From Pseudomonadota bacterium (GTDB lineage: Bacteria > Myxococcota_A > UBA9042 > CAIXZC01), in the NCBI GenBank assembly GCA_043815665.1, contig JBDRIT010000025.1, positions 67,487 through 131,486 of the forward strand: DNA of 64,000 nucleotides. The letters run 5' to 3'. Shown here in pieces: positions 9,631-60,287 of this stretch. Positions within the stretch are counted from its first letter, which is position 1. Every line of letters starts with the position of its first letter. The notes under the pieces were generated by a model, which was not told where the DNA came from, did not search any database, and saw only the letters and a program-made list of their open reading frames with translations. A program made the position numbers and the translations under genes.

Positions 9631-10233
9631 TCAAAAATTCAACACGGGCGCCGGGCCGGGAGGAGCGAGGAGCCGTCCCAGGAGCCGGCGGCCCCGGTGG
9701 AGGCGGGACATGACCGTACCGATGGGGATGCCCAGGCGCCCGGCGGCTTCCCTGTAAGAGAGGTCCGAGAGATCGCAGAGCTCGATGCAGCGCCGGAAGT
9801 CCGGCGGGATGTCCCGCAAGGCCGCCAGGACCCGATCCACCAGGAAGTAGTCGGGATCCCGCAGGGGCTTCTCGTCACGGAGCACCTTGAAGTACCGGTA
9901 CTCGTCCAGGAGCCGGACGCTGGTGCGGGCCTTCCGCCGGGTGTTGAGGAAGGTGTTGCGCAGGATCCGGGACAGCCACGGCCCCGGCTCGGTGCCGGAG
10001 CGAAACTGCTCCAGGTTCTGCAGCGCCTTCACCATGGTCTCCTGGAGCAGGTCCTCAGCCTCCGTCGCGTCCCGGCAGAGACCGAGGGCCTGCCGCCGGA
10101 GACGGGACATGCACCGCACGATGGCTCGGACCAGCGCCTCCTGATCTTCAGCGCTGCGTGGCGTAGCAGCGAGGGAGAGGTCCGTTTCCGGGAGCATCCT
10201 GTTGTGGTCGCGGGTCGCTTCTTTGGAAATCAT
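9631..10233 (-). CDS. ECF (sigma-70 family, RpoE-like) RNA polymerase sigma factor
   Basis: Region 2 (LLQETMVKALQNLEQF...PWLSRILRNTFLNTRRK) and region 4 (DLSYREAAGRLGIPIGTVMSRLHRGRRLL) motifs. Confidence 0.9.
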   Translation of the reverse strand: MISKEATRDHNRMLPETDLSLAATPRSAEDQEALVRAIVRCMSRLRRQALGLCRDATEAEDLLQETMVKALQNLEQFRSGTEPGPWLSRILRNTFLNTRRKARTSVRLLDEYRYFKVLRDEKPLRDPDYFLVDRVLAALRDIPPDFRRCIELCDLSDLSYREAAGRLGIPIGTVMSRLHRGRRLLGRLLAPPGPAPVLNF

Positions 10234-14821: not shown

Positions 14822-16282
14822 ATGAAAACGTCGCAACGAATCACCCTGGCGCTGCTCTTCACGGTCCTTTGCTCCGACGGGTGCATCCGGTCACGCTGCT
14901 ACCGCGACCGGGACTGCCCCGGCGGCCAGGTCTGCAACAGCGCCACCGGCGTCTGCGTCGTCCCGGACTGCATCGGTGACGACGCCTGCCTGGCGGGCCA
15001 GATCTGCCAGGCCAACGTCTGCGTGCCGGGCTGCCTCGGGGACGAGGACTGCGGCACGGCGAAGGTCTGCGTCGCGGGCCACTGCGTCCTCGAGACCTCC
15101 TCGGGGTCCGGCTGCATCTGCATCGCGGCGCCCTTGTTCTGCGCGCAGGACATCCACCCGGGCTCAACGACCTTCCAGTCCGAGATCTGCATGGGAGACA
15201 CCTCCCAGACCGCAAAGCTCCTCTTCTTCGGGAACACCGGGTGATTCCACTGCCGTCACCAGTTCGGTGACCTCTGGGACATGAAGGAGACGTTGCTGGC
15301 GGACGGGGTCGACAACGTCGAGCTCTGGTTCATCCAGATCGGGACCCAGGACAAGACGCCGGAGGAGGTCGAGGATCTCATCGGGGAGTACCCGACCACG
15401 GTCCTGGACGACGACCCCGAGCAGACCATCTGGACCGCCTTCGCGTCCACCTGGTACGAGGCGGTCCTCCTGGACCCGGAGGACTGCATCGTCGCGAAGT
15501 TCGGGCCCTTCACGACGTTCCCCCAGGATCCCGACGAGATCATCCCCCTGTGGAAGGGCGCCGCCCTCGGGACCCTCCCCTGTGACGAGCCCGAGCCCGG
15601 GCCGGAGTCCGGGGCCGAGCCCGCGCCCGACGTCTCCGAGCCGATGCCCGATGTCTTCGAGCACGACACCGTGGACGTCGTCGACATCCTCGACCTCGTG
15701 GACGCCATCGAAGATGTCCCCACGGACACGCTGGCGGACGTCCCCACGGACACCCCCGCGGATCTCCCCGGAGAGATCCCGGAGATCCCCCCCTGGTGGT
15801 GCCAGGTGGACGCGCCCCCGGCGCCCGTCGGCCCGGGGGATCCGCTGCCGTTCTTCACCTGCGTCGACATGAACCCCATGTCACCCACCGAAGGGGAGGT
15901 GGTCTCCAAGTCCTCCCTCAAGCAGAGGGTCTGGCTGGGATACGCCGGGAGTGGTGGCTGAGGCTTCTGCGTGCAGCAGGCTGCTGCGCTCGAAGACCTC
16001 GTGCTGGAGGCCCAGGCCCAGGGATGGGACGACCTGACCGCGGTGTTCCTCAACCAGGCCCAGGACGTAACCACCTTCGACTACCTGTCCACGGAGTTCG
16101 GCGGCCCCGCGGTCCAGGATCCCGATGACGGCAGCCTCTGGGCGGCCTTCGGGCTGGGCTACAACGGCGCGATGATCGTCGACCGGGACGGCGTGATGAC
16201 CGCGCTCTTCTCGACGCCATCGTTCCCCGATGACGCCGAGGCGATCTCCGCAGCCCTGCAGGAGGCCCTCGAGCAGCCGTGA
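14822..16282 (+). CDS. predicted selenoprotein: exported Cys-rich protein with two thioredoxin-fold (TlpA-like) domains, each with a UxxC active site (in-frame TGA at 15242-15244 and 15959-15961)
   Basis: Three ORF-track entries (14786-15244, 15281-15961, 15971-16282) share one frame and are separated only by TGA. FFGNTG-TGA-FHC and GYAGSGG-TGA-GFC each fall exactly on the WCxxC position of a redoxin fold. The rest of each fold continues after the TGA. A hairpin lies 9-10 nt after each TGA. Confidence 0.65.
15255..15271 (+). promoter_or_regulatory. candidate bacterial SECIS-like hairpin 1 (GTCACC-AGTTC-GGTGAC), 10 nt downstream of TGA 15242-15244
   Basis: Perfect 6-bp stem with a 5-nt loop containing GUU. 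The spacing is typical of bacterial SECIS apical hairpins. Confidence 0.45.
15971..15989 (+). promoter_or_regulatory. candidate bacterial SECIS-like hairpin 2 (GTGCAGCA-GGC-TGCTGCGC), 9 nt downstream of TGA 15959-15961
   Basis: 8-bp stem (one G.U pair) with a GGC loop. Confidence 0.45.
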
Positions 16283-17700
16283 GAACCAGCTTTACCTTCA
16301 TCCTCGTCCTCCTCCTGCTGGCACCCGCTGATGCCCTGGCCGAGGATTGCTGGGACGCGGCCCGCCCCTTCGCCGAGAAGAACGACTGGGCCGCGGTCGA
16401 GAAGACCCTGCGAGGCTTCCCGGCGCGGGACCGCGCCTGCCAGCTCCTCCTGGCCGAGGCCCAGATCCACCAGGGCAAGCACACCTGGGCCCTCCAGATC
16501 CTCCGACTCTTGGTGGAGGCGGACCCCCGGGACGCGGTGGCTCGGGGGCTCCTGGGCGCGGCGCTCCTGGGGATGGGGGACCACGAGAGCCTCCTCGAGG
16601 TGGCCAGGGAGCTGCCTCCGACCACGCCGGGGGATCCCTGGACCGGGATCCTGGAGCACCAGCGCGCGGCAGCGGAGCTCCGGACCGGAGACGCACACAC
16701 CGCCCGGCTTCGCCTGACCCGGGTTCTCCGTGAGCGCCCGCTGCATCCCTTCCGCGACGAGGCGAATCGGTTCCTGGGTCTGGCCTGGTGGTATGATTAC
16801 CGGGATCGGGGACAACCCACCCTGGACCTCGCCACGGGGTTCCAGTACGACTCCAACGCAGCCTTCGATCCGGACGACCCGCTGCTCTCCGTGGTCGAGG
16901 GGGATCCGGCGGCCTGGCGGGGCTGGCTGTCTGCGTCGGGGCGGATCCCGCTGGTCTGGGAGCCCCGCACGGTGGTCACGGCGAACGCGTCCGCGTACCG
17001 GAGCTTCCACAGCACGGCGATCGCGAACGACTTCAACTACACGGACGTCTCCGGCGGGGCGACCTTGGTCCACCGCATGCTGTGGGGACAGGCGGACGCA
17101 TCCATCGAGGTCGCGTGGCTCAGCCGCATCGGCCTCCTCGACGGCGGGCCCCTCCTGCCGGAGCCCAGGATCTTCGCGTTCCTGGAGAACCACTCCTTCG
17201 CTGCGGGGTTCCGGGTGGAGCCCGCCGCCGGCGTCCTGCTGGGGTTCACGGGGGTCGGGGGCTACCAACGCTTCGCGGAGCTGGCCAGGAACAACCTGGG
17301 GGGCGGGGGCCTCCTGTCCCTCCTCTGGTCGGTCGGAGTCGTCGACCTGGCGTTCACCGGCTCCGGGATCTACCGGGAGGCCGAGAGCGAGGGGTACGAT
17401 CGGTATGAGCTGGCCACCCGCCTCACGGTGAGCCTCCGCCTGCCCTGGGAGGTCCGTCTCGGCGCCTCCGGCGGACTGGGGCACGACGACTACCTCGACT
17501 CCGCAGGCTGGTTCGAGGCCGGCAGCCGGCGGCGGGACACCCGCTGGGACGCCCGGGCCACCCTGGGTCGCCCCATCGCAGCCGGCTTCGGCGTCGAGGT
17601 GCATGGGGGCTACGGGGAGCGACGCTCCACCGTGGGCGCGTTCGCCTACGATCACTGGACCGCAGGGCTCACCCTGAGCTGGAGTCATGCATGGGACTGA
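16279..17700 (+). CDS. TPR-containing putative outer-membrane beta-barrel protein
   Basis: GTG start overlaps the upstream stop (GTGA). Signal peptide RTSFTFILVLLLLAPADALA. N-terminal TPR-like helices. The C-terminal ~300 aa have alternating-hydrophobic beta-strand character and end ...GLTLSWSHAWD with a terminal aromatic. Confidence 0.6.
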   Translation: MRTSFTFILVLLLLAPADALAEDCWDAARPFAEKNDWAAVEKTLRGFPARDRACQLLLAEAQIHQGKHTWALQILRLLVEADPRDAVARGLLGAALLGMGDHESLLEVARELPPTTPGDPWTGILEHQRAAAELRTGDAHTARLRLTRVLRERPLHPFRDEANRFLGLAWWYDYRDRGQPTLDLATGFQYDSNAAFDPDDPLLSVVEGDPAAWRGWLSASGRIPLVWEPRTVVTANASAYRSFHSTAIANDFNYTDVSGGATLVHRMLWGQADASIEVAWLSRIGLLDGGPLLPEPRIFAFLENHSFAAGFRVEPAAGVLLGFTGVGGYQRFAELARNNLGGGGLLSLLWSVGVVDLAFTGSGIYREAESEGYDRYELATRLTVSLRLPWEVRLGASGGLGHDDYLDSAGWFEAGSRRRDTRWDARATLGRPIAAGFGVEVHGGYGERRSTVGAFAYDHWTAGLTLSWSHAWD

Positions 17701-18053
17701 GAACGATCCTCGTCATCTCCATCGCGCTCCTCGCCACCGCCTGCGCCCACGCGCCGCGATACAGCGGTGAGCCAGCGAACCGCCAGGAGGCCTTCCTCCT
17801 CGAGCACCTCCCCTCCCCCGCACCGACCCGTGACGACGAGGCCTGGGCCCGGAGCGCCAAGGCGTTCCTGGCCCGCGCCGCCGGCCGCGGCCTCGAAGGC
17901 ACCGTGGACATCTCCGCCGCCTGCGGCTGCGTGGACAGCGGCGACGGCGGCGGCAGCGGCGGCGGCCCCGGTGGGCCGGTGGGGCCGGACATCGAGGGGC
18001 CGTCCAAGGAAGCGACGATCCGCGTGAAGGTCGTGCTGCCCGACCCCTCCTGA
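17691..18053 (+). CDS. small lipoprotein
   Basis: MGLRTILVISIALLATAC lipobox-like sequence. Gly-rich C-terminus. Overlaps the upstream gene by 10 nt. Confidence 0.55.
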   Translation: MGLRTILVISIALLATACAHAPRYSGEPANRQEAFLLEHLPSPAPTRDDEAWARSAKAFLARAAGRGLEGTVDISAACGCVDSGDGGGSGGGPGGPVGPDIEGPSKEATIRVKVVLPDPS

Positions 18054-20181: not shown

Positions 20182-20211
20182 CACGGTTCGAACCGGGGGC
20201 TCGGCAGGTAC

Positions 20212-20790
20212 CTACTCGCACTCCTGGTATTCGACCTTGACCTCACCGCCGGAGGTGGCCTTGACGCGGACACGCCAGACGCCGTCGGACTGGTTGGCGC
20301 GTACGGTGAAGCCCTGCCCCTTCTCGGGCTTGGAGATCATCGCGTTCTTGTCGCTGTCCGCAGGCGCGGTGCAGGGGACATCGGCGAGGTTCCCGAAGGT
20401 CTGGGTCCCGAAGCGGTGCAGGGGCAGGTAGGAGGTCCCCTGCCGGCCCGCCTTCAGGTCCAGGCCGGTGCCGTGCTTGTACGCGATCAGGTCGACCTTC
20501 ATCCCCGAGCCGTCCGCGAGGACCGTCCCCGTTGCGAAGACCGCGCCCTTGTCCGCCTGGAGCGCTGCGGTGCGGATCTTGGCAGCAGGGACAGGGGCCT
20601 TCTTCTTCACGGCAACGGTCTTCTTCTGCTGTGGCTTGTTCTTCTTCTGCTTCTTCTGCTTCTTGTTCTTCTTCTGCTTCTTCTGGGCCGTCAGCGCGCT
20701 CTTGCTGGTCTTCTTGCTCCCGCTCGAGCCGGAGCAGCCACCCAGGGCCAGCGCAATGGCCATGATCACGATCCAGGGGAACCTGCCCAT
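20212..20790 (-). CDS. lipoprotein with poly-Lys low-complexity tract
   Basis: MGRFPWIVIMAIALALGGC lipobox, then KKQKKNKKQKKQKKNKPQQKK, then a globular C-terminal domain. A GGGAGGG RBS precedes this ATG. Confidence 0.65.
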   Translation of the reverse strand: MGRFPWIVIMAIALALGGCSGSSGSKKTSKSALTAQKKQKKNKKQKKQKKNKPQQKKTVAVKKKAPVPAAKIRTAALQADKGAVFATGTVLADGSGMKVDLIAYKHGTGLDLKAGRQGTSYLPLHRFGTQTFGNLADVPCTAPADSDKNAMISKPEKGQGFTVRANQSDGVWRVRVKATSGGEVKVEYQECE

Positions 20791-20807
20791 GATCGTCCCT
20801 CCCATTC

Positions 20808-23498
20808 CTATTTCCAGTACCCGTAGTCCTTGAGGATCCCGCGGGTCGCGGGATCCACGATCCGCTCCTTCTCGAAGTCACCCTCCTCCAGGAGGTCGTC
20901 CGTGGCCCCCGCGGCCCGGGGCCCGGTGCGCCACACGAAGACGCCCAGGTCCTCGCCGGGGATCCGGTGGGGCGGGGTTCGGGCGCTGAGCACGGTCGCG
21001 GCCTCCTCGGGGCCCCAGGTCGGCGCACCGAGGATCGCCAGACCGTCGCGCCCGGCGTAGACCCTGCTGCCGTCCACCGGTGCGCCGTCCAGGGTGAGCT
21101 CCAGGGTCACCGCCGCATCCGGCGGCGCGGTGCGCAGCCTCAGCTGCGGCTCCGTACCCGGCGCCACGTCCAACGCCACCGTGATTCCGTCACGTCCGTT
21201 GCGCTGGTGGAATGCGCCGTCCGGGCCGAGGAACTCCGCGTCGGCGATCCGTCCTGAGATCCGGATGGTGCCTTCGAAGCGTCGGATCTCCGGCCCCTTT
21301 CCCGAGAACGCCAGGTGGTAGACCGCTGTCCCGGGGCGGTCCCCCTGCTCGGGGGTGGCCGCGGAGGGCGCGGCGGCGGGGCCAGCACCGGGGATCGGTG
21401 GTGTCGGCCGCGGTAACGCAGTCTCGGGATTCCACTCGTCGTCCCGGGCCTGCTCCACGTAGTCTTTGTAGAGGGTCCTGGTCTCGCCCAGGAGCTGGCG
21501 GAGCTGCTTGCGGCGGGGATCCTGCTGACGGACGAGGTTCTTCTTCTCATCGGGATCCGTTGTGAGATCGTAGAGCTCCTCCTGGCCGGACTCGCCGCCG
21601 GAGTTCCACGCAGGGGTCCGCGCGTCGTCCTTCTGGTGGTGGAGGATGTACTTCCAGCCCCAGGCCCGAACCGCGCTGCTGAGGCGGCTCTCCACGTAGA
21701 CCACGTCCGGACGGTCCGCGGCGCTGCCCTCCCCGCGCAGCTCATCCCAGAGGGTGAGGCCGGTGTGGGCCGGGTGCGCTGGCAACCCCGCCGCGTCCAG
21801 GAGCGTGGGGGCCACGTCCAGGTGGCTGACCGTGTGTTCGTGGACCACGCCGGGGGTCACGCCCCATCCCCACCAGATGAGGGGGGTCCGGAGCTCCTCG
21901 TCGTAGAGCGTCAGGCCGTGGCTGTTGTTGCAGATCGTCTCGAAGACCTCGGATCGGCAGGAGTGCTCCGTACGCATGACCTCGCCGTGGTCCGCGGTGA
22001 GGAGGAAGATCGTACGCTCCGCGAGGCCCAGGGAGTCCATGTGCTCCACGAGCCGCTTGAGCGCTGCGTCCGCGTAGCGGACCTCGCCCAGGTAGTCCTT
22101 CCTGGCGGGGAGACGACCCTCGTACTGAGCGAGCCGCGCCTCGGTCCAGCGGGCATGCTCCTCCGGCGCCTTGTAGGGCTGGTGGGGCGGGGAGATGTTC
22201 ACGAGCATCAGGAACTTGCGCGCATGGTTCCCGTCCAGCCATCGCACCGCCCTGTCGATGATCCGCTCGGTATCCTCGACGGACTTGCGGTTGTCCCAGA
22301 CCTCGTCGAAGCCGGGGTCCAGGCCCATCAGGGTCGTCCCGAACTGGAAGTGGTTCCGCCCGAAGGTCACGGTCTCGTAGCCGGCCTGCGCGAGGAGGAG
22401 GGGCAGGAGCGGCGGGCGGTGGGCGTAGTATTCGTCGATCTTCTCCTTGCGGAAGTTCCACCACTTCGCGTGGTAGGCGCCCACGGTGGGGTGCTGGGAC
22501 TGGAGGAAGCCCACGATGGAGGGCCGGGTCTGGTTGGACACCGTAAAGTTCGACGTGTAGGTGGTCCCCGTTGCGGCCCGTGCGTCCAGGAAGGGGGTCA
22601 CCGAGGGGAAGCCGGGGTTGCCCGCGCCGACACAGTCCGCGCGCAGCGCGTCCACGAAGAGGACCACCAGGTTGGGGCCCTGCCGGAGCCGCGCAGGCGC
22701 GTCCGCCGCGTCGGACGCCGGGACCGTGACGTGGACGTCGGCGAGCCCTATCCCGGGCTTGAGGCCGACGCCCGCGGGGCTCGAGACCCGAACGGTCACC
22801 GCGCCGGCGTCGGCGGGCAAAGGTACGGTGCCCTCCTCCCAGCGCGTCGACGGCTCCCGACCGGAGAGGTCGAACCGCGACACCACCACGTCGGCGACAA
22901 GGATCTCCAGGCTCAAGGCCTCTGCTCTGCGCCCCTGGAAGGCCTTGGGGAACGCCGCGATCGAGACATGGAGCACGCGCCCCTCCCCCGCCGGGGGGTC
23001 CCACCGCAAGGACGCGCCCGCAGGCAGGAGGAGGCCCGTCCGCATGTCCCAGGTGTGGGCGTCGTGGTCCACGGTGATCAGTCGCCTGAGGAGGAGCTCC
23101 AGGGGCCCCTTTCCGGCGCGGAAGGGGTACGGATAGCTGACTTCGGTGAGGCCCTCGACGTCCAGGCGCAGACCGTCGAAGCCGCGGAGGAGCTCGAGAT
23201 CGGCGGGGGCGTCGATGAGACGCGCGGCGACGGCGCGGGTCCCGGCGAAGGTCGATGCCGTCAGCTCCTCAGCCTGTGGGAGGGGTTCTTCAGCCTCGAA
23301 TCGGCCTGTGGACGGGCCTCCCACACTGTGGGAGGGGCCTCCGGCCCCGATGTCCGGCTCTTCACCCTCGACCGGGACGGGGCGCCACCCAGGCACAGGC
23401 GCAGGCCCGGTGGCCGCCTCGCCCGGGGCCATCCCCGAGCAGGAGGCCAGCCCGAAGAGGACCGCGCCCAGGGTGGCGGCGCGTGTTACGAATCTCAT
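20808..23498 (-). CDS. sulfatase-like (alkaline phosphatase superfamily) lipoprotein with large N-terminal extension
   Basis: LVVLFVDALRADC...LTADHGE are sulfatase-family motifs. Start MRFVTRAATLGAVLFGLASC has a GGAGGA RBS. The active-site region reads SNQTRPS rather than the canonical C/SxPxR. Confidence 0.7.
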   Translation of the reverse strand: MRFVTRAATLGAVLFGLASCSGMAPGEAATGPAPVPGWRPVPVEGEEPDIGAGGPSHSVGGPSTGRFEAEEPLPQAEELTASTFAGTRAVAARLIDAPADLELLRGFDGLRLDVEGLTEVSYPYPFRAGKGPLELLLRRLITVDHDAHTWDMRTGLLLPAGASLRWDPPAGEGRVLHVSIAAFPKAFQGRRAEALSLEILVADVVVSRFDLSGREPSTRWEEGTVPLPADAGAVTVRVSSPAGVGLKPGIGLADVHVTVPASDAADAPARLRQGPNLVVLFVDALRADCVGAGNPGFPSVTPFLDARAATGTTYTSNFTVSNQTRPSIVGFLQSQHPTVGAYHAKWWNFRKEKIDEYYAHRPPLLPLLLAQAGYETVTFGRNHFQFGTTLMGLDPGFDEVWDNRKSVEDTERIIDRAVRWLDGNHARKFLMLVNISPPHQPYKAPEEHARWTEARLAQYEGRLPARKDYLGEVRYADAALKRLVEHMDSLGLAERTIFLLTADHGEVMRTEHSCRSEVFETICNNSHGLTLYDEELRTPLIWWGWGVTPGVVHEHTVSHLDVAPTLLDAAGLPAHPAHTGLTLWDELRGEGSAADRPDVVYVESRLSSAVRAWGWKYILHHQKDDARTPAWNSGGESGQEELYDLTTDPDEKKNLVRQQDPRRKQLRQLLGETRTLYKDYVEQARDDEWNPETALPRPTPPIPGAGPAAAPSAATPEQGDRPGTAVYHLAFSGKGPEIRRFEGTIRISGRIADAEFLGPDGAFHQRNGRDGITVALDVAPGTEPQLRLRTAPPDAAVTLELTLDGAPVDGSRVYAGRDGLAILGAPTWGPEEAATVLSARTPPHRIPGEDLGVFVWRTGPRAAGATDDLLEEGDFEKERIVDPATRGILKDYGYWK

Positions 23499-26340: not shown

Positions 26341-29334
26341 CTATTCATTCGGGAGCGTCGGAGCGAGGTGGATCTCCACCCGCCGGTTCCTGGCCCGTCC
26401 CTCGTCCGTGTCCGCAGGATCGACGAGGTCTGCGTCGCTGACCCCCACAACCTCGAGGATCTCGTCGGCGAGACCTGCACGCTGGAGGGCGGCCCCTACG
26501 GACCGGGCGCGCTCGAGGGAGATCTCGCGCTTCGACTCCGGCGTCCCCACCTGATCCGAATGCCCTTCGATCCGCAGGCGGAGCGGCGGCAGGCTACGGA
26601 GAAGGTCCACCGCGCTCCTGAGGGCCTCCACGGTCTCCCCGGGGAGGCTCACGGAGCTTCGCGGGAAGGGGACCGGGCGGAGGGCGCCCTCCAGATCCAC
26701 CATCCCCGGAGGGATCCGCGCCGGCGGGTCGGGCTCGGGGCAGCCGTCACCGTCCCGGTCCCCGTCGGGGTCCTCGGCCTCATCCTGGCAGAGATCGAAG
26801 GGATCCGTGATCCCGTCGCCATCCCTGTCCGGGTGCTGTGCGTCCCGGTCTTCCACACCCCAGTCCGCCTCCGGCGCCTCCGGAGGCGGGCGCCCCCCGA
26901 AGTGCGTCCCCCAGGAGACCCCCAGGCGGCCCTCGGCGCGGTCCCCGAAGGCCGTGTCCGTGATCCAGTGCGGGGTCCACCGATACTCCACCCGCGCCTC
27001 CCTGCTGTTGGCGTCCGGGGGCGCGTTGTGGTGGTAGACCGTCTCCAGGTAGAGCTCCCGTGTCACCTGCTTCCCCACGGTGAGGATCGGGTTCGCGGCG
27101 GACCTCCCGAACCCCAGGCCGAGGTTGTCCACGCCGATGTTGTCGAAGAGCTGCCGCTTGAGATCCGGGTTGTGGTACCGCTCGACCATGGAGGCGACCT
27201 GTCGCCGGACCTCACCGTCGCGAGAATCAACCACGTCCACCCGCCCCAGGATCAGCAGGGTCATGATCTGGAACTCCGGGAGCGGGGGGCTCGACAGGAG
27301 GACCAGGTCGGGCCGGTGCCCGGGCCCGGCGACGCGGACCAGGACGTGGGTCCGCTGCACCCGCCCCCGGGCGACCACGTCCAGCACCGGCTCCAGGGGA
27401 CGCGCCTCCCGCTCAGCAGACGCGCGCCTGAGGTGGCCCTCCGCGAGGGTGATGCGCCCGGCCCGAAGTTCGAAGCGGTTGTCGAAGAGGTCGATCCAGC
27501 CCCCGGGGGTGAGGTCCAGGCCACCGTGGACCCGCACCAAGGGCCCCGTCCGCTCCGTGCGGAGGGTCCCCGTGAGCTCCAGGGACACCCCCGGCCCCCG
27601 CACCTTGACGGGCGTACCCAGCGCCAGCACCAGCCTCCGGATCTCCGACCCATCCGACCCCTCTGCCGAGGCGCCGTCCTCGCGGGAGCCGACCACGCGC
27701 ACCGCAGGGTTCGTCGGAATGGCGCGGGGCTCCGGCACCTCGTCGTCGGTGATCCGGACCGCGCCCTTCACGACCGTCACGGTGAGGGTCCGCTCACCCG
27801 GGCGTGCGGTGAGACCGAGGTCCGCGACTGCAGTCAGGAGGACCACGGGCAACCCCTCCCGCAGCACCGGGAACCGCTGGAGTTTGAGCGCGGCCGTCCC
27901 GGTCAGGGTCGACGCGCTCCAGAGGGGTGCGTCCCCGGGGGTCCCCGCCGGGGTCGGATCCCAGGACAGGGCGCCGCGCCCCAGGACCTCCCCGGGCGCG
28001 GCCAAGGCAACCAGCTCGTCAATCTCCAGGGTCGTCCCGTGCACCCTCGCCCGCGCTCGGACCCCCCGCAGCCGCCGCCCGACGGGCAGCAGGTCGAAGG
28101 CTGCGTCCTCCACGGAGAGGGTGCCATCGAGCACAGGCGCCCCCAGAGTCCCGGACAAGCGGACCCCGCCGTGGACGCTGCCGCGGCCCCCGTCCAGGCC
28201 AGCCCCCAGGAAGGGGACCACCCGCCCGGCGGGGAGGTCCGCGGACAAGGTCCCATGCACCGGCGCGTCGACCAGGGACACCCCGGCCCTCCGGAGCCCG
28301 AGGAGAGGCATCCCGGCGGTCAGGTCGAGGTCGATCTCGCCCTCCCCCAGGGTGGCCCTGAGACGCTGGGTGTCCGGACCCGCCTCGAAGTGCGCGTCCA
28401 GGTCGACCCGGTCGCTGCCGGCCGCCACCGCCCCCTGCAGGGTCGCATCGATCCGGAGATCGTCCAGGGTTCCGGCGCCCCGCAGGGTGAAGCCCAGGAG
28501 GAAGTCGAGGTCCGGAGGAGCGCGCCAGAAGGGGCGGAGGAGGGACGGATCGATGACCCCCGCGGTCACGGAGATCCGGTGCTCCTCGTGGTCCCGCCAG
28601 GTCAGGCCGCCCCCGAGGAGGTCGAGACCGACAGGGAGCTCCCCGTCCAGGGTCAGGGCGGGGTCGTCCTCGGAGCCCCACAGCAGGTGCACCCGGGACC
28701 GGCCGGCGCTGTGCTGGACACGGGCCTCCACCGCACCGAGGACCGCGCCCCCCCAGGTTGCGTCCGCGACGCTCAGATCCAGCTCCAGGGCCGGCGCCCG
28801 GGGGTCCCCCGAGAGGCGGATCTCGCCCTGCAAGGTGCCGCCCAGGGGGGCCCAGCCCAGGACCTCGCCGAGGGCCCCGAGATCCACGCCATCCACGCGC
28901 AGCGCCGCGGCCAGGGGCCCTGGACCCAGCGAGATCGTTCCCTGGGACAGCTCCACTGCGGCCTCGAAGGTGGCGTCGAGGGCCAGGCGGCCGATGCCGC
29001 CCTCCACCACGGCGGACAGCTCCCCGGGGGAGCCGGCCGGGGACCAGAGCTCCAGGGAGAGCGCGCCCAGGGGCACCCCCCCCACGTGGAGCTCCTCCAC
29101 CCTGCAGCGGAGGAGCCGATGCATGCCGGCGTCGTCCATGACCACGGCGAGTCGGACCTCCACCACCCCGTCGACTGCCTCGAGGGCCGGCCAGTCACTG
29201 AGCAGGCTCGCCAGGGAGCTGCGCCAGGACAGGTGCAGGTCCGGATCCTCCGCCACGACCTCCCGCTGGGGCGCACCCCAGGCCACCGCCGGCAGGAGCA
29301 GACAGGCGACCAGGAGAATCTGCCGGGCGCTCAA
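26341..29334 (-). CDS. TamB-like translocation/assembly module protein (DUF490) with TSP3-type Asp repeats and C-terminal OmpA-like peptidoglycan-binding domain
   Basis: N-terminal signal-anchor. A long beta-rich body. DUF490-like ...VTRELYLETVYHH..., then DRDGDGITDPFD...DPDGDRDGDG, then OmpA_C (LRIEGHSDQVG...NRRVEI). Confidence 0.7.
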   Translation of the reverse strand: MSARQILLVACLLLPAVAWGAPQREVVAEDPDLHLSWRSSLASLLSDWPALEAVDGVVEVRLAVVMDDAGMHRLLRCRVEELHVGGVPLGALSLELWSPAGSPGELSAVVEGGIGRLALDATFEAAVELSQGTISLGPGPLAAALRVDGVDLGALGEVLGWAPLGGTLQGEIRLSGDPRAPALELDLSVADATWGGAVLGAVEARVQHSAGRSRVHLLWGSEDDPALTLDGELPVGLDLLGGGLTWRDHEEHRISVTAGVIDPSLLRPFWRAPPDLDFLLGFTLRGAGTLDDLRIDATLQGAVAAGSDRVDLDAHFEAGPDTQRLRATLGEGEIDLDLTAGMPLLGLRRAGVSLVDAPVHGTLSADLPAGRVVPFLGAGLDGGRGSVHGGVRLSGTLGAPVLDGTLSVEDAAFDLLPVGRRLRGVRARARVHGTTLEIDELVALAAPGEVLGRGALSWDPTPAGTPGDAPLWSASTLTGTAALKLQRFPVLREGLPVVLLTAVADLGLTARPGERTLTVTVVKGAVRITDDEVPEPRAIPTNPAVRVVGSREDGASAEGSDGSEIRRLVLALGTPVKVRGPGVSLELTGTLRTERTGPLVRVHGGLDLTPGGWIDLFDNRFELRAGRITLAEGHLRRASAEREARPLEPVLDVVARGRVQRTHVLVRVAGPGHRPDLVLLSSPPLPEFQIMTLLILGRVDVVDSRDGEVRRQVASMVERYHNPDLKRQLFDNIGVDNLGLGFGRSAANPILTVGKQVTRELYLETVYHHNAPPDANSREARVEYRWTPHWITDTAFGDRAEGRLGVSWGTHFGGRPPPEAPEADWGVEDRDAQHPDRDGDGITDPFDLCQDEAEDPDGDRDGDGCPEPDPPARIPPGMVDLEGALRPVPFPRSSVSLPGETVEALRSAVDLLRSLPPLRLRIEGHSDQVGTPESKREISLERARSVGAALQRAGLADEILEVVGVSDADLVDPADTDEGRARNRRVEIHLAPTLPNE

Positions 29335-31253
29335 AATGTCTCCCCGAAGCCGAAGTAGATCCCCCAGGCCGGCTCATCGGGGTAGACCCCCGGGTCGTTG
29401 AGGCGGAAGCCGGCGTCCAGGCGCAGCAGTCCGATGGGGCTGGTCACACGGATCCCGGGCCCCGCGGAGACGTTCCACTCCTCGGGGCGCCAAGTCGCCT
29501 GTCCCGCCTGGACGTCCCCGAAGTCCAGAAAACCCACCAGGTGGATCATGGTGATGATCTTGAGGCGGAGCTCGAGGTTGCCCTGGATCATGGTGGCCCC
29601 ACCCACGGGGATCGAGGTGCACGTCCCCTGGTCGTCGCACTCCTCGACCCTGGGTGAGAGGCGCCGGTTGCCCCAGCCCCGCACCGTGTCCGCACCGCCG
29701 AGGTAGAGGGTGTGGGTCAGGGGCGCGCCCGGGTTCTGGCCGAAGGTCAGGATGAGGCCTGTACGCAGCTTGGCCGCCACCTGGAGACGGCCCCAGGGGC
29801 GCCACCAGGCACGCACCCCGCCCAGGAGGCGCTGGAAGTCGTAGTCGCTGCCCAGGTACTTCGCCGCCACGAGGTAGGAGGCGTCCAGGGTGACGCCATT
29901 CCTGGGCGTGAGGATCGAGTCCGTGAACCAGGCCGCGGCCTGGAGCTCCACATAGCCCAGGAGGAACGGGTCCCGGAAGTCCCGGCCCAGCAGGGACGCC
30001 TGGGCGTCCAACGCCGGGGTGGTCGCGAAGAAGTCCACGAAGCGGATGTTGTGGCTCACGCCCAGCTGGTATCGGCCGGCGAACCAGCGACTCACCCCGA
30101 TCCGGTTCGCCGGAGAGTAGTACTGGTAGCCCTCCTGGATGTCCACGTCGAAGCGCGGCGTGAGCTCCCAGATCAGGTGCTTCTCCAGGAGGCCCTTCCG
30201 GGTGAACCGGGGCACCAGGGAGACCGCGGGGCCGTGCTGGAGGGGCGCCCAGGGGTTGGGCAGCTCCGCCCAGCCGGCGAGGACCGTCGCGTCGAGGCGC
30301 ACCAGGCGCCCGAAGAGGTTGGTGTGGGTGTACTCCGCCGCGATCTGCTCCTGCCAGCGGGAGGTCTCGACGGCCAGCCGGACGCCCACGCGGACGCTCT
30401 GGGGATCCGCCTCGTCCACCCGGATCGTGACCTGGACGCCGCCACGATCCACTTCGGTCGCAGGCTGGACCGCGACCCATCGGAAGACCCGGGTGCTCTT
30501 CAGGGCCGTCTCGATCTGCTGGATCAGCGCCGGGGTGTAGAGGGCCCCGAGGGCGAAGTCGATCTCGTTGCGCGCCAGGTTCTCCGGGACCCGGTCCAGC
30601 CCCTCAAAGCGGATCCCGGAGAGGAGGGCGGCGGGTCCCGGATCGACCTCCAGGACCACGTCCGCCTTGCGCGTGAGGGGGTGGACCTCCGCGCTCCCCC
30701 GCACGCGGGCCAGGGGATGACCCCGGTTGCGCAGGGTCTGGGAGAGTCTGCCCACGGTCGCGTTGAGTCTGTCCACCTCCCAGGGGCCACCGGGGTCGAG
30801 GGTGACCATGGTCTCGAGATCCTCCCGCACGGGCGGAGGAAGCGGACACCCGGGCGCCCACCGGACATCGATCCCGCTGACCCGGGTTCGGGGGCCCTCA
30901 TCGACGACGATCCGCAGGCCGGCGCGGCGCCGTCGGCGGTCGAGGCGCGTCTCCACCGCGAGGACCTTCGCGTCGAGGAAGCCGTAGGCGCGGTAGAGCG
31001 CCTCGATGCGGTCGGCGTCGATGCCCACGATGCCGTCGTCGAGATGGTAGGTCGGCGCGGTCGGCATCCAACGCGTCACGCCGAGGTGGAGATGCTCCAG
31101 GAGGGTCTCCTGGTCAAAGCGCGTCACCCCGACGAGCTCCACCCCCTTGATCCGGTAGCCGGACCGCAGCACATGGCGCTCCTTCCGGCCACACCCGGGT
31201 GCGAGGAAGAGAGCGGCGAGGAGGAGGAGCGTGAAGCGGGCGCGTCGGGGCAA
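29331..31253 (-). CDS. Omp85-family outer membrane protein (BamA/TamA-like; POTRA + beta-barrel)
   Basis: 640 aa with a lipobox/signal start. POTRA-like N-terminus. C-terminal surface-antigen barrel ending ...GIYFGFGETF. 4-nt overlap with the TamB-like gene. Confidence 0.8.
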   Translation of the reverse strand: MPRRARFTLLLLAALFLAPGCGRKERHVLRSGYRIKGVELVGVTRFDQETLLEHLHLGVTRWMPTAPTYHLDDGIVGIDADRIEALYRAYGFLDAKVLAVETRLDRRRRRAGLRIVVDEGPRTRVSGIDVRWAPGCPLPPPVREDLETMVTLDPGGPWEVDRLNATVGRLSQTLRNRGHPLARVRGSAEVHPLTRKADVVLEVDPGPAALLSGIRFEGLDRVPENLARNEIDFALGALYTPALIQQIETALKSTRVFRWVAVQPATEVDRGGVQVTIRVDEADPQSVRVGVRLAVETSRWQEQIAAEYTHTNLFGRLVRLDATVLAGWAELPNPWAPLQHGPAVSLVPRFTRKGLLEKHLIWELTPRFDVDIQEGYQYYSPANRIGVSRWFAGRYQLGVSHNIRFVDFFATTPALDAQASLLGRDFRDPFLLGYVELQAAAWFTDSILTPRNGVTLDASYLVAAKYLGSDYDFQRLLGGVRAWWRPWGRLQVAAKLRTGLILTFGQNPGAPLTHTLYLGGADTVRGWGNRRLSPRVEECDDQGTCTSIPVGGATMIQGNLELRLKIITMIHLVGFLDFGDVQAGQATWRPEEWNVSAGPGIRVTSPIGLLRLDAGFRLNDPGVYPDEPAWGIYFGFGETF

Positions 31254-43732: not shown

Positions 43733-46700
43733 ATGAGCATGAAGGGACGTTGGACGATGCGCTTCGCGATGACCGCGATCCTGGTTGCGGCCCTGGCCGC
43801 GCCGGCCGCCGCTGCGACCTGGAGCTACGGCTTCGACAATGACCTCCAGGAGTTCTCGGGGACCGACGGCTGGGTCTCCCAGTACTGCTCGGACCCGTGG
43901 ACCACCGCGCTCAACGGCGGCGTCACGCCGAAGACCGACGACGGCTGCAACGTGGAGCAGTGCACCCCGAGCAACAACTGCGGGTACAACTGGGGCTACT
44001 GGCTCCAGTGGGGCCAGTGCATCCAATCCGACCCCCTGGACAACCACATCACCTACGGCCCGAAGACCTGGCAGGACTACGTCTTCCGGGCGGACATGCG
44101 CAACGACGACGACGACACCTTCGGGTTCGTGTTCCGCTACCAGAACTCGGGGCAGTTCTACCTCTTCATGATCTCCCGGAACATCGCCCCCCTGCCGAAC
44201 CTCGGCTGCGGTCACGAGATCTATGGCGCGGCCCTGTACCGGATCGAGGGGTCCGACGGGACCGTGCTGGGCACGGCGGAGAACGTCGTCTACCAGCCCG
44301 GCCAGGTGCACAAGGTGCAGATCACGGTGCAGGGGAACCACCTCACCGTCCAGTTCGACACGAACCACGACGGCGCGTTCGGCGCCGACGAGACCATCTT
44401 CGACCTGGACGACCCCGATCCGCTGCCCTCGGGCCAGGTGGGCTTCTTCGCCTGGGAGAACGGCGCAACAGGGAACGACGCCGACCCCTGCTCCGCGGGG
44501 GGCTGCTGGTTCGACAACGCAGAGGTGGACGTCCTGGCGGTCGACGATCCCTGCGACGGAATCTCCTGGGAGGGCTACTGCGAAGGGAACACCGCGGTCT
44601 ACTGCGACGACGGCGTGGTCAAGGAGGTCAACTGCCAGGGCTGCTGCGCCTGGATCCCCCAGCAGGAGTACTACTGGTGCACCAACGGACCCTCCTGCCA
44701 GCAGGACTGCATCCCCGAGTGCGGGCAGGGGGACTTCGGCTGCTCGGACCAGGGGACCCACGCCTGGGTCTGCGGACAGGACTCCACGGGGTGCTGGATC
44801 CGGTCCTGGACCGCGTGTACCCAGTCCGGCGTCTGCGATGCGGCGACGGGGCAATGCGCGGGCAACCCCTGCGAGCCCCAGTGCGTCGGCGAGGACGGCC
44901 AGCTGATGGCGTGTGGACCCGATGGCTGCGGCGGCGCTTGCGGCACCTGCCCCGGGGACTCCTACTGCGGCGCCGGGTTCACCTGCGTCGAGGACTGCAT
45001 GCCGAACTGCGGCGGAAAGATCTGCGGCTCTGACGGCTGTGGCGGCGCCTGCGGCGCCTGCCCCCCGGGCTTCGAGTGCAACCAGCAGGGCTTGTGCCAG
45101 GCCCAGTGCCTGCCCAACTGTGTGGGCAAGCAATGCGGCAACGACGGCTGCGGCGGGTCCTGCGGGATCTGTCCGCCGGGCCTCACCTGCGTGGACTACC
45201 AGTGCACCGTCTGCACCCCGGACTGCACCGACAAGCAATGCGGCGGCGATGGCTGCGGCGGCCTCTGCGGGACCTGCCCCGAGGACTTCACCTGCGAGGA
45301 CAACCTGTGCGTCGAGGGCCCCTGCGAGCCCCAGTGCGTCAGCGCCGACGGCCTGATGAAGCAATGCGGCCCGAACGGGTGCGCCGGCTTCTGCGGCTTC
45401 TGCCCCCCGGGCCTGGAGTGCAACGACGCTGGGATGTGCATCTCCACCTGCACGCCGGACTGCGAGGGAAAGGACTGCGGCCCCGACGGGTGCGACGGTT
45501 TCTGCGGACAATGCGACGACGACGCGCTCTGCTGGGACGGCCAGTGCATCGTCCAGGACAGCTGCGTGGGCTTCTGCGGCGAGCAGGGACCGAGCTGCTA
45601 CTGTGACCCGCAGTGCCAGGACTACGGCGACTGCTGCGACGACGCCTGCGAGGCCTGCCCTGACCTCCCCTTCTGCGGTCAGTGCCAGCCCCTCTGCGCC
45701 GATCCCCTCGGCAACCCCTTCGAGTGCGGCGACGACGGCTGCAGCGGCGCCTGCGGTCTCTGCGGCGACGGTGACGTCTGCCAGGGACACGTCTGCGTCC
45801 CCGACGGCCCCGTCATCCCCGAGACCTGCAGCGAGATCCAGGGCTGCATCGAGCAGTGCGGGGACGACGAGGCGTGCGCAGCCGCATGCTTCGAGGTGGC
45901 CCCGCCGGACGCCCAGCAGCTCTACTTCGAGCTGGTGCAATGCTATCAGGGCGCAGAGGGACTCTGCGACTGCGTCGGAGAGGACGACAACTGCTGGCTC
46001 GTCTGCCTCTTGACGGAGTGCGAGGCGGTCATCGACGCGTGCTATGCGTTCCAGGGGGACTGCGGCGACATCGTCGGCTGCACCCAGGAGTGCACGGGCG
46101 GCACCTGCATGGCGGACTGTCTGAACTCCGAAGGCGACGTCGCGGCCAAGCTCCTCTTCATGGAGGTCGCCGCCTGCGTCGAGAACGCCTGCGCCGATCC
46201 CTTCCCCGGCTGCGTCGAGGACGCGCTCCAGGGACCCTGCGCCGACCTCTTCGAGGAGTGCACCGGCGGCGCCTGCGAGCCCGACTGCCAGGGCCCCGAC
46301 GGACCGATGCAATGCGGCGGCGACGGCTGCGGCGGGAGCTGCGGCGAGTGCGGGGCCGGCGCCTCCTGCGTCGGCGGGGAATGCGTCGACGACGGAGACC
46401 CCTGTGGGCTCGCCTGCGCAGGCAAGGAGTGCGGCTCCACCAACGGCTGCCTCTGCGGCACCTGCGACGCGGGCCAGGCCTGCGACGACGGCGAGTGCAT
46501 CCCCGTAGGAGAGTGCACCCCGGGCGACTACAAGCAGTGCGTGGGCGACATCCTGTACTGGTTCGACTCCTGTGACCAGCAGGGGCCGCCCACGGAGATC
46601 TGCAAGGGGACCTGCGTCGAGGACAAATGCGTGGACGAGGAGCCTGGCACCGGGGACGTGATCGATCCCGAGGACGCAGGCCCGGACCCGGACATCACCG

Positions 46701-60265: not shown

Positions 60266-60287
60266 CGTCTCTCCACAGTCGCAGGGT

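What the first reader, a model, noticed from the sequence alone, without database searches (positions are those of the whole stretch)
14822..18053. Putative envelope selenoredox operon: Sec-redoxin exported protein, then a TPR/beta-barrel outer-membrane-like protein, then a small lipoprotein
The three genes are translationally coupled. GTGA overlaps the stop at 16279-16282, and there is a 10-nt overlap at 17691-17700. The second protein has a signal peptide, N-terminal TPR helices, and a C-terminal ~300 aa with amphipathic beta-strand periodicity ending SWSHAWD, which looks like an OMP C-terminal aromatic signature. The third is a Gly-rich lipoprotein.

Together they resemble a dedicated periplasmic or outer-membrane redox module whose catalytic subunit uses selenocysteine twice. 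I do not recognise a described system with this arrangement.
Basis: inference. Interest (0 to 1): 0.8.

Follow-up and report, generated by a model that had tools for sequence, protein, structure and literature searches.

The report
Selenoprotein lipoprotein with Slam-like outer-membrane partner
A conserved three-gene operon in uncultured Myxococcota-like bacteria pairs a lipoprotein carrying two selenocysteine thioredoxin-fold domains with a distant relative of the Slam (type 11 secretion) outer-membrane barrel and a small Cys-Gly-Cys lipoprotein, which suggests the selenium enzyme is placed at or on the outer membrane; this pairing was not found in the literature searched.

Summary

- **Gene 1 (14822-16282)** is one reading frame with two in-frame TGA codons (15242, 15959), each in a UxxC redox motif and each followed by a conserved hairpin. 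Both TGAs are kept in relatives. More distant relatives have Cys at the first site and always TGA at the second. Both domains match NCBIfam NF053656, the "TUGYCR motif thioredoxin fold (seleno)protein" family.
- **Gene 2 (16279-17700)** is predicted as a signal peptide, a TPR domain and a 14-stranded beta-barrel. Pfam's Slam model (SlipAM, PF04575) does not hit it directly. A profile of its barrel does find proteins that pass the SlipAM threshold, and it aligns with them over the whole barrel (hhalign 99%, E 3e-18).
- **Gene 3 (17691-18053)** is a lipoprotein with an invariant SAxCGC motif, a Gly-rich stretch and a terminal beta-strand.

The cassette, with its overlapping start and stop codons or short gaps, recurs in every related metagenomic locus that has enough flanking sequence, across about six lineages down to about 25-28% gene 2 identity.

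My best reading is a Slam-like translocon with lipoprotein partners that places a selenoredoxin at or on the outer membrane. The parts are secure. Translocation and the chemistry are inferred. This is a new variant of known kinds, of moderately high interest.

The parts
14822..16282 (+). Gene 1: a 486-aa exported, probably lipidated, selenoprotein. It has a signal peptide, a Cys-rich stalk and two thioredoxin-fold UxxC domains joined by an acidic, Pro-rich linker.
   Evidence: A single frame with two TGAs. NCBIfam NF053656 scores 101.5 bits with two stretches. The frame is kept in L001, L006, L013, L016, L022, L024 and L026.
14822..14884 (+). Signal peptide ending at the invariant Cys21 (..SDG-C-IRSRC), the probable lipidation site.
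   Evidence: The Cys is invariant. Relatives have canonical lipoboxes here: VAVGC, ASAGC, LSGC, AVGC, VAGC, LTGC. The window has Asp at position -2, which is atypical.
14885..15121 (+). Cys-rich repeat stalk (CxxxxDCxxGxxC repeats).
   Evidence: Sub-threshold hits to Pfam DUF7107 and NCBIfam Myxo_Cys_RPT.
15128..15556 (+). Redoxin domain 1, with active site G-U-FHC-R.
   Evidence: NF053656 scores 53.6 bits on the domain alone. AhpC-TSA gives E 5e-5. The closest solved structures are ResA, TlpA and DsbE.
15242..15244 (+). Sec codon 1 (TGA).
   Evidence: Kept in L001, L006 and L007 and in L026. The same position is Cys (TGC) in L013, L016, L022 and L024.
15242..15281 (+). SECIS-like hairpin 1 (stem GUCACC/GGUGAC, loop AGUUC, 16 nt after the UGA).
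   Evidence: The fold is. The sequence is nucleotide-invariant in the four Sec lineages aligned and has no equivalent in the Cys lineages. Synonymous differences are 3% here against 28% gene-wide.
15557..15854 (+). Acidic, Pro-rich linker of variable length and sequence.
15855..16279 (+). Redoxin domain 2, with active site G-U-GFC-V.
   Evidence: NF053656 scores 54.0 bits on the domain alone. It aligns with domain 1.
15959..15961 (+). Sec codon 2 (TGA).
   Evidence: TGA in every lineage that has domain 2. The free-standing homologue P0037 has Cys in a CSHC motif at this position.
15960..16000 (+). SECIS-like hairpin 2 (CAGCAG/CUGCUG upper stem).
   Evidence: 80.9% of cells pair, against 32-54% when the partner is slid, and three pairs carry compensatory changes. 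The only two GCT Ala codons of gene 1 (15980, 15983) form the 3' arm; GCT is 2.5% of Ala codons locally.
16279..17700 (+). Gene 2: a 473-aa outer-membrane protein, a distant Slam/DUF560 (type 11 secretion) relative.
16342..16812 (+). Periplasmic TPR domain (aa 22-178). It carries a Cys pair (C24, C54) conserved in most cassette-type relatives.
   Evidence: Pfam TPR_19, AF2 helices, Cys pair.
16819..17697 (+). 14-stranded beta-barrel (aa 181-473).
17691..18053 (+). Gene 3: a 120-aa lipoprotein. Its features are Cys18 in the lipobox LATAC, the motif AG[RH]G...D[IL]SAxCGC (CGC at 17922-17930), a Gly/Ser-rich stretch, and the terminal strand IRVKVVLP.
   Evidence: It has homologues in every cassette. 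The same C-terminal module ends the gene that follows the barrel in the sister operons L019 and L027.

Best explanation
This is one operon with three products.

1. Gene 1 encodes an exported, probably lipidated protein with a disulfide-rich stalk and two TlpA/ResA-like thioredoxin-fold domains. The attacking residue of each domain is selenocysteine (UxxC), decoded from UGA with the help of a hairpin just downstream.
2. Gene 2 encodes a distant member of the Slam/DUF560 (type 11 secretion) family: a periplasmic TPR domain plus a 14-stranded outer-membrane barrel.
3. Gene 3 encodes a small lipoprotein with an invariant CGC motif, a Gly-rich stretch and a terminal beta-strand.

**Shown.** The identity and architecture of the three parts, Sec decoding (by comparative evidence), and strict conservation of the cassette.

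**Inferred from homology with Slam systems.** Slam barrels move lipoproteins encoded by adjacent genes to the cell surface. By analogy, the barrel's TPR domain receives one or both lipoproteins in the periplasm and the barrel places them in or across the outer membrane. The selenoredoxin would then work at the outer membrane or cell surface as a thiol/selenol-disulfide oxidoreductase. The gene 3 tail (Gly-rich stretch plus beta-strand), which always accompanies this barrel clade, is the element most likely to engage the barrel.

**Not determined.** The substrate and the electron source.
For: **Sec decoding**
- The TGAs and the reading frame are conserved.
- Site 1 switches between Sec and Cys among lineages, and the free-standing homologue P0037 has Cys at the site-2 position.
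- Hairpin 2 keeps 80.9% of cells paired with three compensatory pairs.
- Hairpin 1 is invariant in Sec lineages and absent from Cys lineages.
- Synonymous differences fall to 3% and 9% after the two TGAs, against 28% gene-wide.
- The rare GCT codons of gene 1 occur only in the stem of hairpin 2.

**Redoxin family**
- NF053656 matches across both TGAs.
- The closest solved structures are ResA, TlpA and DsbE.

**Barrel**
- A barrel profile finds 140 proteins with the barrel at the C-terminal end, most of them 430-580 aa with a long N-terminal region. Of the 65 scanned, 9 hit Pfam SlipAM and 15 hit TPR_Slam at E <= 0.01. P0047, P0077, P0089, P0100 and P0112 pass the SlipAM cut-off.
- hhalign of the barrel against SlipAM-positive proteins gives 99.0%, E 2.8e-18, over the whole barrel.

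**Lipoprotein neighbours**
- Slam homologues have an N-terminal TPR domain and a 14-stranded DUF560 barrel, and about 52% sit next to lipoprotein genes (PMC5449769; PMC12282271).

**Cassette conservation**
-.

**Sister clade**
- Related barrels are preceded by a DsbA-like gene and followed by a protein with the gene-3-type tail. The link between this barrel clade and thiol-redox proteins is therefore recurrent.

**Outer membrane present**
- The window encodes Omp85 and TamB homologues.
Against: - Pfam SlipAM does not hit gene 2 directly, even at E <= 10. The link to Slam is transitive, and the SlipAM-positive comparison set was itself drawn from hits to the query profile.
- Neither lipoprotein has the C-terminal 8-stranded beta-barrel that defines known cluster-1 T11SS cargo. 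The C-terminus of gene 1 is a thioredoxin fold. Gene 3 is too small and matches no family, and its AF2 model is unusable (pLDDT 42.7).
- No translocation, surface exposure, selenium incorporation or redox activity has been measured.
- No Sec machinery and no DsbD/CcdA-type electron donor was found in the part of the window that was scanned.
- The window's gene 1 lipobox has Asp at position -2.
- NF053656 passes its cut-off only when the two domains are summed (101.5 against 100; about 54 bits each).
Confidence: 0.5

Rival explanations
1. This is a static envelope redox complex with no translocation. Both lipoproteins stay on the periplasmic face of the outer membrane, docked on the TPR domain. 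The barrel acts as a channel for a small substrate or product, or simply as the membrane anchor. This is essentially the first reader's periplasmic reading.
For: - The closest solved relatives of the redoxin (ResA, TlpA, DsbE) all work in the periplasm or its equivalent and need an inner-membrane electron donor (established knowledge).
- The closest barrel folds are the substrate channels CymA and OmpG.
- The known T11SS cargo signal, a C-terminal 8-stranded barrel, is absent.
- A conserved Cys pair in the periplasmic TPR domain could be a docking or relay site.
Against: - The barrel is homologous over its whole length to SlipAM-positive proteins, and the characterised members of that family translocate proteins rather than small molecules (PMC12282271).
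- The disulfide-rich stalk and long acidic linkers of gene 1 are more typical of extracellular display (inference).
Confidence: 0.3
2. Gene 3 is a dedicated plug or assembly partner of the barrel, like LptE in LptD, or it is the only cargo. In either case the selenoprotein is merely co-expressed and acts elsewhere in the periplasm.
For: - The gene-3-type C-terminal module (Cys motif, Gly-rich stretch, terminal strand) follows the barrel in the two sister operons examined (L019, L027), where gene 1 is replaced by a DsbA-like protein.
- Gene 2 and gene 3 overlap in the closer and several distant loci.
Against: - Gene 1 is just as strictly linked within the cassette clade, overlapping gene 2 in the closer relatives and separated from it by only 9-11 nt in distant ones.
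- A thioredoxin-fold gene sits directly upstream of the barrel in both clades.
Confidence: 0.13
3. Gene 2 is an exopolysaccharide export channel of the BcsC/PgaA/PelB type (TPR plus barrel), unrelated to its neighbours.
Against: - Those matches have a low TM-score (0.3) and high rmsd.
- The model has 14 strands, like CymA and OmpG, whereas BcsC and PgaA have 16 (own knowledge).
- The protein is 473 aa, against more than 800 aa for those exporters.
- No synthase or glycosyltransferase genes are adjacent in any locus.
- The gene overlaps both of its neighbours.
Confidence: 0.03
4. The TGAs are real stop codons, and gene 1 is three separate small genes, as in the public annotation of this MAG.
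For: NCBI annotates ABIK09_02630, ABIK09_02635 and ABIK09_02640 as three separate hypothetical proteins. Gene callers split the gene in every contig.
Against: - The family model aligns straight across each TGA.
- The codons between each TGA and the next ATG are conserved as protein.
- Cys replaces the TGA in other lineages.
- A conserved hairpin follows each TGA.
Confidence: 0.02

Closest known systems
Slam / type 11 secretion system outer-membrane proteins (DUF560, Pfam PF04575 SlipAM; Neisseria Slam1/2, Xenorhabdus NilB, HrpB)
   Same: - A signal peptide, an N-terminal periplasmic TPR domain and a C-terminal 14-stranded barrel of about 300 aa.
- A total length of about 480 aa.
- Adjacent lipoprotein genes.
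- Profile-profile homology to SlipAM-positive proteins across the whole barrel.
   Different: - The Pfam SlipAM and TPR_Slam models do not hit it directly.
- The neighbouring lipoproteins lack the C-terminal 8-stranded barrel of known cargo.
- The partners are thiol/selenol redox proteins, a cargo class not mentioned in the T11SS papers read.
- The host is an uncultured Myxococcota/'Deltaproteobacteria'-labelled lineage.
NCBIfam NF053656, 'TUGYCR motif thioredoxin fold (seleno)protein'
   Same: Both domains align to the model across the Sec position. They share the UxxC motif with Sec or Cys at the first position. Relatives carry T-U-GYC-Q and T-U-SYC-R.
   Different: - Here the domain is duplicated in tandem on a Cys-rich lipoprotein stalk.
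- Each domain alone scores about 54 bits, under the cut-off of 100.
- The window's motifs are G-U-FHC-R and G-U-GFC-V.
- No paper mentioning the family was found.
TlpA / ResA / DsbE extracytoplasmic thiol-disulfide oxidoreductases, and the known selenoprotein forms (Prx-like thiol:disulfide oxidoreductase, thiol:disulfide interchange protein, UGC-containing TlpA-family protein)
   Same: A thioredoxin fold with an N-terminal attacking residue in a [CU]xxC motif, and export from the cytoplasm (table in PMC13188914).
   Different: - Similarity is weak (E about 2e-3).
- There are two Sec domains in one chain.
- It is genetically coupled to an outer-membrane barrel rather than to cytochrome c maturation or CcdA/DsbD genes.
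Outer-membrane barrel plus lipoprotein redox modules such as the Geobacter Ext porin-cytochrome cluster, which includes the selenoprotein ExtKL
   Same: A barrel gene clustered with extracytoplasmic redox proteins, one of which contains Sec (PMC13188914 table; PMC5877670).
   Different: Those use multihaem cytochromes and a much larger MtrB/PioB-type barrel. Here the redox centres are selenol/thiol pairs and the barrel is Slam-like.

Membership tests
Bacterial selenoprotein gene | An in-frame UGA conserved among homologues, with coding sequence continuing on both sides | tested here: met
   Coding-like GC3 on both sides of each TGA.
Bacterial selenoprotein gene | Homologues with Cys at the Sec position | tested here: met
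   Site 1 is Cys in L013, L016, L022 and L024. The free-standing homologue P0037 has CSHC at the site-2 position.
Bacterial selenoprotein gene | A SECIS stem-loop immediately 3' of the UGA | tested here: met
   Hairpins start about 11 nt after each UGA, with a G in the apical loop. Hairpin 2 shows compensatory changes. Synonymous differences are suppressed. Rfam gave no match, so the match to the SECIS consensus rests on my own knowledge of it.
Bacterial selenoprotein gene | Sec machinery (selA, selB, selC, selD) in the same genome | not testable with these tools
   Only 64 kb is available. No tRNA was found in the window or in the related loci.
NCBIfam NF053656 redoxin_TUGYCR | Whole-protein score at or above the curated cut-off of 100 bits | tested here: inconclusive
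   101.5 bits, but only as the sum of two domains. Each domain alone scores 53.6 or 54.0 bits.
NCBIfam NF053656 redoxin_TUGYCR | A T-[UC]-G-Y-C-R active-site motif | tested here: inconclusive
   The window has G-U-FHC-R and G-U-GFC-V, which keep the UxxC core. Relatives have T-U-GYC-Q (L013, L022) and T-U-SYC-R (L026).
Slam / T11SS outer-membrane protein (DUF560) | An N-terminal periplasmic TPR domain | tested here: met
   Pfam TPR_19 scores 25.2 bits, at its cut-off. AF2 helices at residues 17-178.
Slam / T11SS outer-membrane protein (DUF560) | A C-terminal 14-stranded beta-barrel | tested here: met
Slam / T11SS outer-membrane protein (DUF560) | A match to Pfam PF04575 (SlipAM) | tested here: not met
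   No hit at E <= 10 for gene 2 or its 8 close homologues. Homology is indirect only: a profile hit of E 1.3e-21 to P0047, which passes SlipAM, and hhalign at 99.0% against SlipAM-positive proteins.
Slam / T11SS outer-membrane protein (DUF560) | An adjacent gene encoding a lipoprotein or secreted cargo | tested here: met
   Gene 3 has a canonical lipobox. Gene 1 has an invariant Cys in a lipobox position.
Slam / T11SS outer-membrane protein (DUF560) | Cargo with a C-terminal 8-stranded beta-barrel (TbpBBD / lipoprotein C type) | tested here: not met
   The C-terminus of gene 1 is a thioredoxin fold. Gene 3 is about 100 aa when mature and matches no family. Cluster 3 T11SS systems also lack this domain (PMC12282271).
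Slam / T11SS outer-membrane protein (DUF560) | Barrel-dependent surface exposure or secretion of the partner | not testable with these tools
   This needs an experiment.
TlpA/ResA/DsbE thiol-disulfide oxidoreductases | Sequence membership (Pfam AhpC-TSA, Redoxin or Thioredoxin_8 above threshold) | tested here: not met
   AhpC-TSA scores 23.6 bits against a cut-off of 26. Thioredoxin_8 scores 15.1 against 27. PDB ResA gives E 1.8e-3. The domain is related at the superfamily level only.

The most novel reading that the evidence does not exclude
The three proteins form a thiol/selenol relay across the outer membrane. The Gly-rich segment of the small CGC lipoprotein would be threaded through the Slam-like barrel, much as RcsF is threaded through OmpA/C/F. 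Reducing or oxidising equivalents would pass between the periplasm (via the TPR-domain Cys pair and the CGC motif) and a surface-displayed double-selenocysteine redoxin. This would be a non-haem counterpart of porin-cytochrome conduits, and the first bacterial selenoenzyme shown to work on the cell surface.
Probability: 0.1. Interest if true: 0.9.

Novelty: new variant of a known kind. Interest (0 to 1): 0.62.

Why it matters
- **A new partner class for type 11 secretion.** Only animal-associated cluster 1 of this family has experimentally verified cargo, and the majority of its outer-membrane proteins have no known or predicted cargo (PMC12282271). If the reading is right, thiol/selenol redox enzymes are a new partner class, and they lack the canonical C-terminal barrel signal. 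The conserved gene-3-type tail becomes a candidate new recognition element that can be tested.
- **A selenoprotein at the outer membrane.** It would place a selenoprotein at or beyond the outer membrane, where no obvious reductant exists. How such an enzyme would be recycled is then an open question.
- **Sec acquisition caught in progress.** Site 1 switches between Cys and Sec among lineages, and a hairpin is present only in the Sec lineages. This is a clean natural example of a protein that already has one Sec site gaining a second Sec codon together with its SECIS.
- **Annotation.** Public annotation splits the gene into three hypothetical proteins, so the whole family is invisible in protein databases.

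Tried and rejected
- A word-indexed search with full-length gene 1 (U replaced by C) found nothing, probably because the Cys-rich and acidic low-complexity words dominated. A domain alignment solved this.
- Exact look-ups of window proteins failed. The homologue ids worked instead.
- Rfam at a permissive E-value gave only noise and no SECIS family match.
- The afdb50 fold library was unavailable.
- The GTDB genome scan found only one 1.7-kb Myxococcales contig, so taxonomic spread and genome-level co-occurrence with sel genes could not be assessed.
The single-sequence model has pLDDT 42.7 and was not used.
- The promoter and terminator scan found nothing, which is uninformative for this GC-rich organism.
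- I looked for further redoxin, barrel or gene 3 copies in the window and found none. I looked for DsbD/CcdA or sel genes among about 20 other window ORFs and found none.
- The polysaccharide-exporter reading suggested by the BcsC hits was rejected on strand number, protein size and genomic context.
- The reading of the TGAs as true stops was rejected.

Full report
**1. What is in the sequence**

Between a glpX-type fructose-bisphosphatase gene and a transketolase gene lie three tightly packed genes on the + strand. The region is about 70% G+C.

Region 14822-16282 translates as one frame interrupted only by two TGA codons. These lie at 15242-15244 (LLFFGNTG-U-FHCRHQFG) and 15959-15961 (LGYAGSGG-U-GFCVQQAA). 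The gene 2 GTG start (16279) overlaps the gene 1 stop in the sequence GTGA. The gene 3 ATG (17691) lies 10 nt inside gene 2, whose stop is at 17698-17700. A window-wide scan for in-frame TGA with coding-like GC3 on both sides returned only these two credible sites.

**2. The TGAs encode selenocysteine**

- *Conservation of the frame.* In contigs whose gene 2 is 68-69% identical (L001, L006) the frame and both TGAs are kept. The residues between each TGA and the next ATG are conserved as protein. Gene callers and NCBI split the gene into three hypothetical proteins, ABIK09_02630, 02635 and 02640.
- *Sec/Cys exchange.* In more distant cassettes (gene 2 only 25-28% identical), site 1 is Cys: G-C-PHC in L013 and L022, F-C-SHC in L016, K-C-SHC in L024. 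Site 2 is always TGA: T-U-GYC-Q, T-U-GFC, T-U-GGC. L026 again has Sec at both sites: T-U-SYC-R and G-U-SGC-R. A free-standing homologue, P0037, has CSHC.
- *Hairpins.* Each TGA is followed after about 11 nt by a hairpin. Hairpin 1 is nucleotide-identical in the four Sec lineages aligned and has no equivalent in the Cys lineages. Hairpin 2 pairs in 80.9% of cells across eight sequences, against 32-54% when the partner is slid, and three pairs carry compensatory changes.
- *Codon-level constraint.* Synonymous differences fall to 3% and 9% in the 12 codons after the TGAs, against 28% gene-wide. The only two GCT alanine codons in gene 1 (GCT is 2.5% of Ala codons locally) form the 3' arm of hairpin 2.
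- *Family model.* NCBIfam NF053656, "TUGYCR motif thioredoxin fold (seleno)protein", aligns straight across both TGAs.
- *Not testable.* The Sec machinery could not be looked for, because only 64 kb is available and no tRNA is present.

**3. Gene 1 anatomy**

- The signal peptide ends at an invariant Cys. Most relatives have a canonical lipobox there (VAVGC, ASAGC, LSGC, AVGC, VAGC, LTGC), but the window has Asp at position -2.
- A Cys-rich repeat stalk follows, with weak DUF7107 and Myxo_Cys_RPT hits.
- Redoxin domain 1, an acidic Pro-rich linker of variable length, and redoxin domain 2 complete the protein.
- The two domains are paralogous. Each scores about 54 bits against NF053656, so the curated cut-off of 100 is passed only by their sum.
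- The closest solved proteins are ResA, TlpA and DsbE, at E about 2e-3. Pfam AhpC-TSA is just below its threshold.
- One sub-lineage (L007, L008) has lost domain 2.

**4. Gene 2 is a distant Slam-like barrel**

- Pfam sees only TPR repeats.
- AlphaFold2, using nine homologues, gives pLDDT 81.5 and pTM 0.73. The model has helices at residues 17-178 and 14 strands at 181-471.
- A profile of the barrel alone, searched against 1.84 billion representatives, found 140 proteins, most of them 430-580 aa with the barrel at the C-terminal end.
- Of the 65 scanned with Pfam, 9 hit PF04575 SlipAM (surface lipoprotein assembly modifier, DUF560) and 15 hit PF24575 TPR_Slam at E <= 0.01. P0047 (E 1.3e-21 to the profile), P0077, P0089, P0100 and P0112 pass the SlipAM cut-off.
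- hhalign of the gene 2 barrel alignment against SlipAM-positive proteins gives 99.0% probability, E 2.8e-18, over 273 columns spanning the whole barrel.
- Slam proteins are defined by an N-terminal TPR domain plus a 14-stranded DUF560 barrel. About half sit next to lipoprotein genes whose products they move to the cell surface (PMC5449769; PMC12282271).
- Gene 2 therefore shares the architecture and is homologous, but it fails the direct Pfam test. I file it as a divergent relative, not a demonstrated member.

**5. Gene 3**

Gene 3 encodes a 120-aa lipoprotein with the lipobox LATAC. Across all cassettes it keeps three features:
- the motif AG[RH]G..G..D[IL]SAxCGC;
- a Gly/Ser/Pro-rich stretch;
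- a P[DG][IV][ED] motif followed by a terminal amphipathic strand.

It matches no family. The single-sequence model was unusable.

**6. The cassette is conserved, and the theme extends**

Every locus carrying a gene 2 relative with enough flanking sequence has gene 1 upstream and gene 3 downstream. These loci are the window clade (L001-L009, L020), L013/L022/L023, L016/L017, L024 and L026. In L018/L025 and L021 the contig ends cut off gene 1.

A sister clade of barrels includes the SlipAM-positive P0047 (L019) and P0049 (L027). There the operon order is FGE-sulfatase, rhodanese, MauE/DoxX, DsbA/Thioredoxin_4, barrel, and then a 230-282 aa protein. The C-terminus of that last protein carries the same tail as gene 3: a Cys motif, a Gly-rich stretch..IEH/EID.., and RVN[IL]xVxLE. 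In both clades, then, a thioredoxin-fold gene precedes the barrel and a protein bearing this tail follows it.

By contrast, the free-standing Cys homologue P0037 sits next to an FG-GAP protein and has no barrel nearby.

**7. Mechanism**

*Shown.* The parts, their architecture, Sec decoding (by comparative evidence), operon-like coupling and conservation.

*Inferred.* By homology with Slam, the barrel handles one or both lipoproteins and places the selenoredoxin at or on the outer membrane. The gene 3 tail is the best candidate for the element that engages the barrel. The redoxin acts as a thiol/selenol-disulfide oxidoreductase.

*Unknown.* The substrate, the electron source, and which lipoprotein, if either, crosses the membrane.

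The main rival is a periplasm-facing complex with no translocation. It is favoured by the periplasmic habits of TlpA/ResA relatives and by the absence of the 8-stranded cargo barrel.

**8. Novelty**

The redoxin domain is a curated (seleno)protein family. UxxC thioredoxin-fold selenoproteins are a well-known class (table in PMC13188914). Slam/T11SS is also known. What I could not find described is the coupling of a Slam-like barrel with thiol/selenol redox lipoproteins. The T11SS papers read contain no mention of thioredoxin, redox or selenocysteine, and mention DsbA only in a comparison of signal peptides. The term TUGYCR occurs in no paper of the library. I rate this a new variant of known kinds. 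All functional statements await experiment.

Noticed in passing
L019:277-7089 and L027:495-7208: These loci carry a sister operon around related Slam-like barrels. Its order is FGE-sulfatase domain protein(s) (one with a faint Cu-binding MopE hit), rhodanese, MauE/DoxX membrane protein, DsbA/Thioredoxin_4, the barrel, a 230-282 aa protein with the gene-3-type C-terminal tail, and another lipoprotein-like gene. It looks like a second envelope sulfur/thiol module, apparently undescribed, built on the same barrel clade.
   Followed up: partly
L007:1854-2684 and L008:191-1021: One sub-lineage has a short gene 1 (276 aa). It keeps the stalk, redoxin domain 1 and Sec1, but has lost the linker and domain 2. 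Genes 2 and 3 are intact.
   Followed up: partly
window 16348-16350 and 16438-16440 (gene 2 Cys24 and Cys54): A Cys pair about 30 residues apart in the periplasmic TPR domain is kept in most cassette-type barrels and in P0047, but not across the wider family. The L013-type clade has a second pair 16 residues apart. These could be structural disulfides or a redox docking site.
   Followed up: partly
window 14822-16282: The public annotation of the source MAG (labelled 'Pseudomonadota bacterium') splits the selenoprotein into three hypothetical proteins, ABIK09_02630, ABIK09_02635 and ABIK09_02640. All metagenome gene calls do the same.
   Followed up: yes
window 26341-31253 (- strand): There is a TamB-domain protein fused to a C-terminal OmpA domain (997 aa), followed by an Omp85/POTRA protein (640 aa). 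This is a TAM-like outer-membrane assembly pair, which confirms the organism has two membranes. The TamB-OmpA fusion is unusual.
   Followed up: no
window 20182-20808 compared with L001:14128-16419: Relatives carry a hybrid histidine kinase/response regulator gene between the transketolase and sulfatase genes. The window goes from transketolase almost directly to the sulfatase gene on the opposite strand, so that gene is missing here.
   Followed up: no
window 57310-60276 (-), 46627-48174 (+); L016:382-1359: There are other large Cys-rich secreted proteins: one with Dicty_CTDC repeats and one with a C-type lectin domain. A 325-aa Cys-rich DUF7107-like protein lies near the L016 cassette. Disulfide-rich exported proteins seem common in this lineage.
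   Followed up: no
L010:6001-8147: The single-domain Cys homologue of the redoxin (P0037, CSHC) overlaps by 4 nt a 531-aa FG-GAP repeat protein and lies next to an OmpA-domain protein. This is a different partner from the barrel cassette.
   Followed up: partly
window 9631-10233 (-): An ECF-type sigma-70 factor lies about 4.6 kb upstream of the cassette, and its position is conserved in L001. It may or may not regulate the operon.
   Followed up: no
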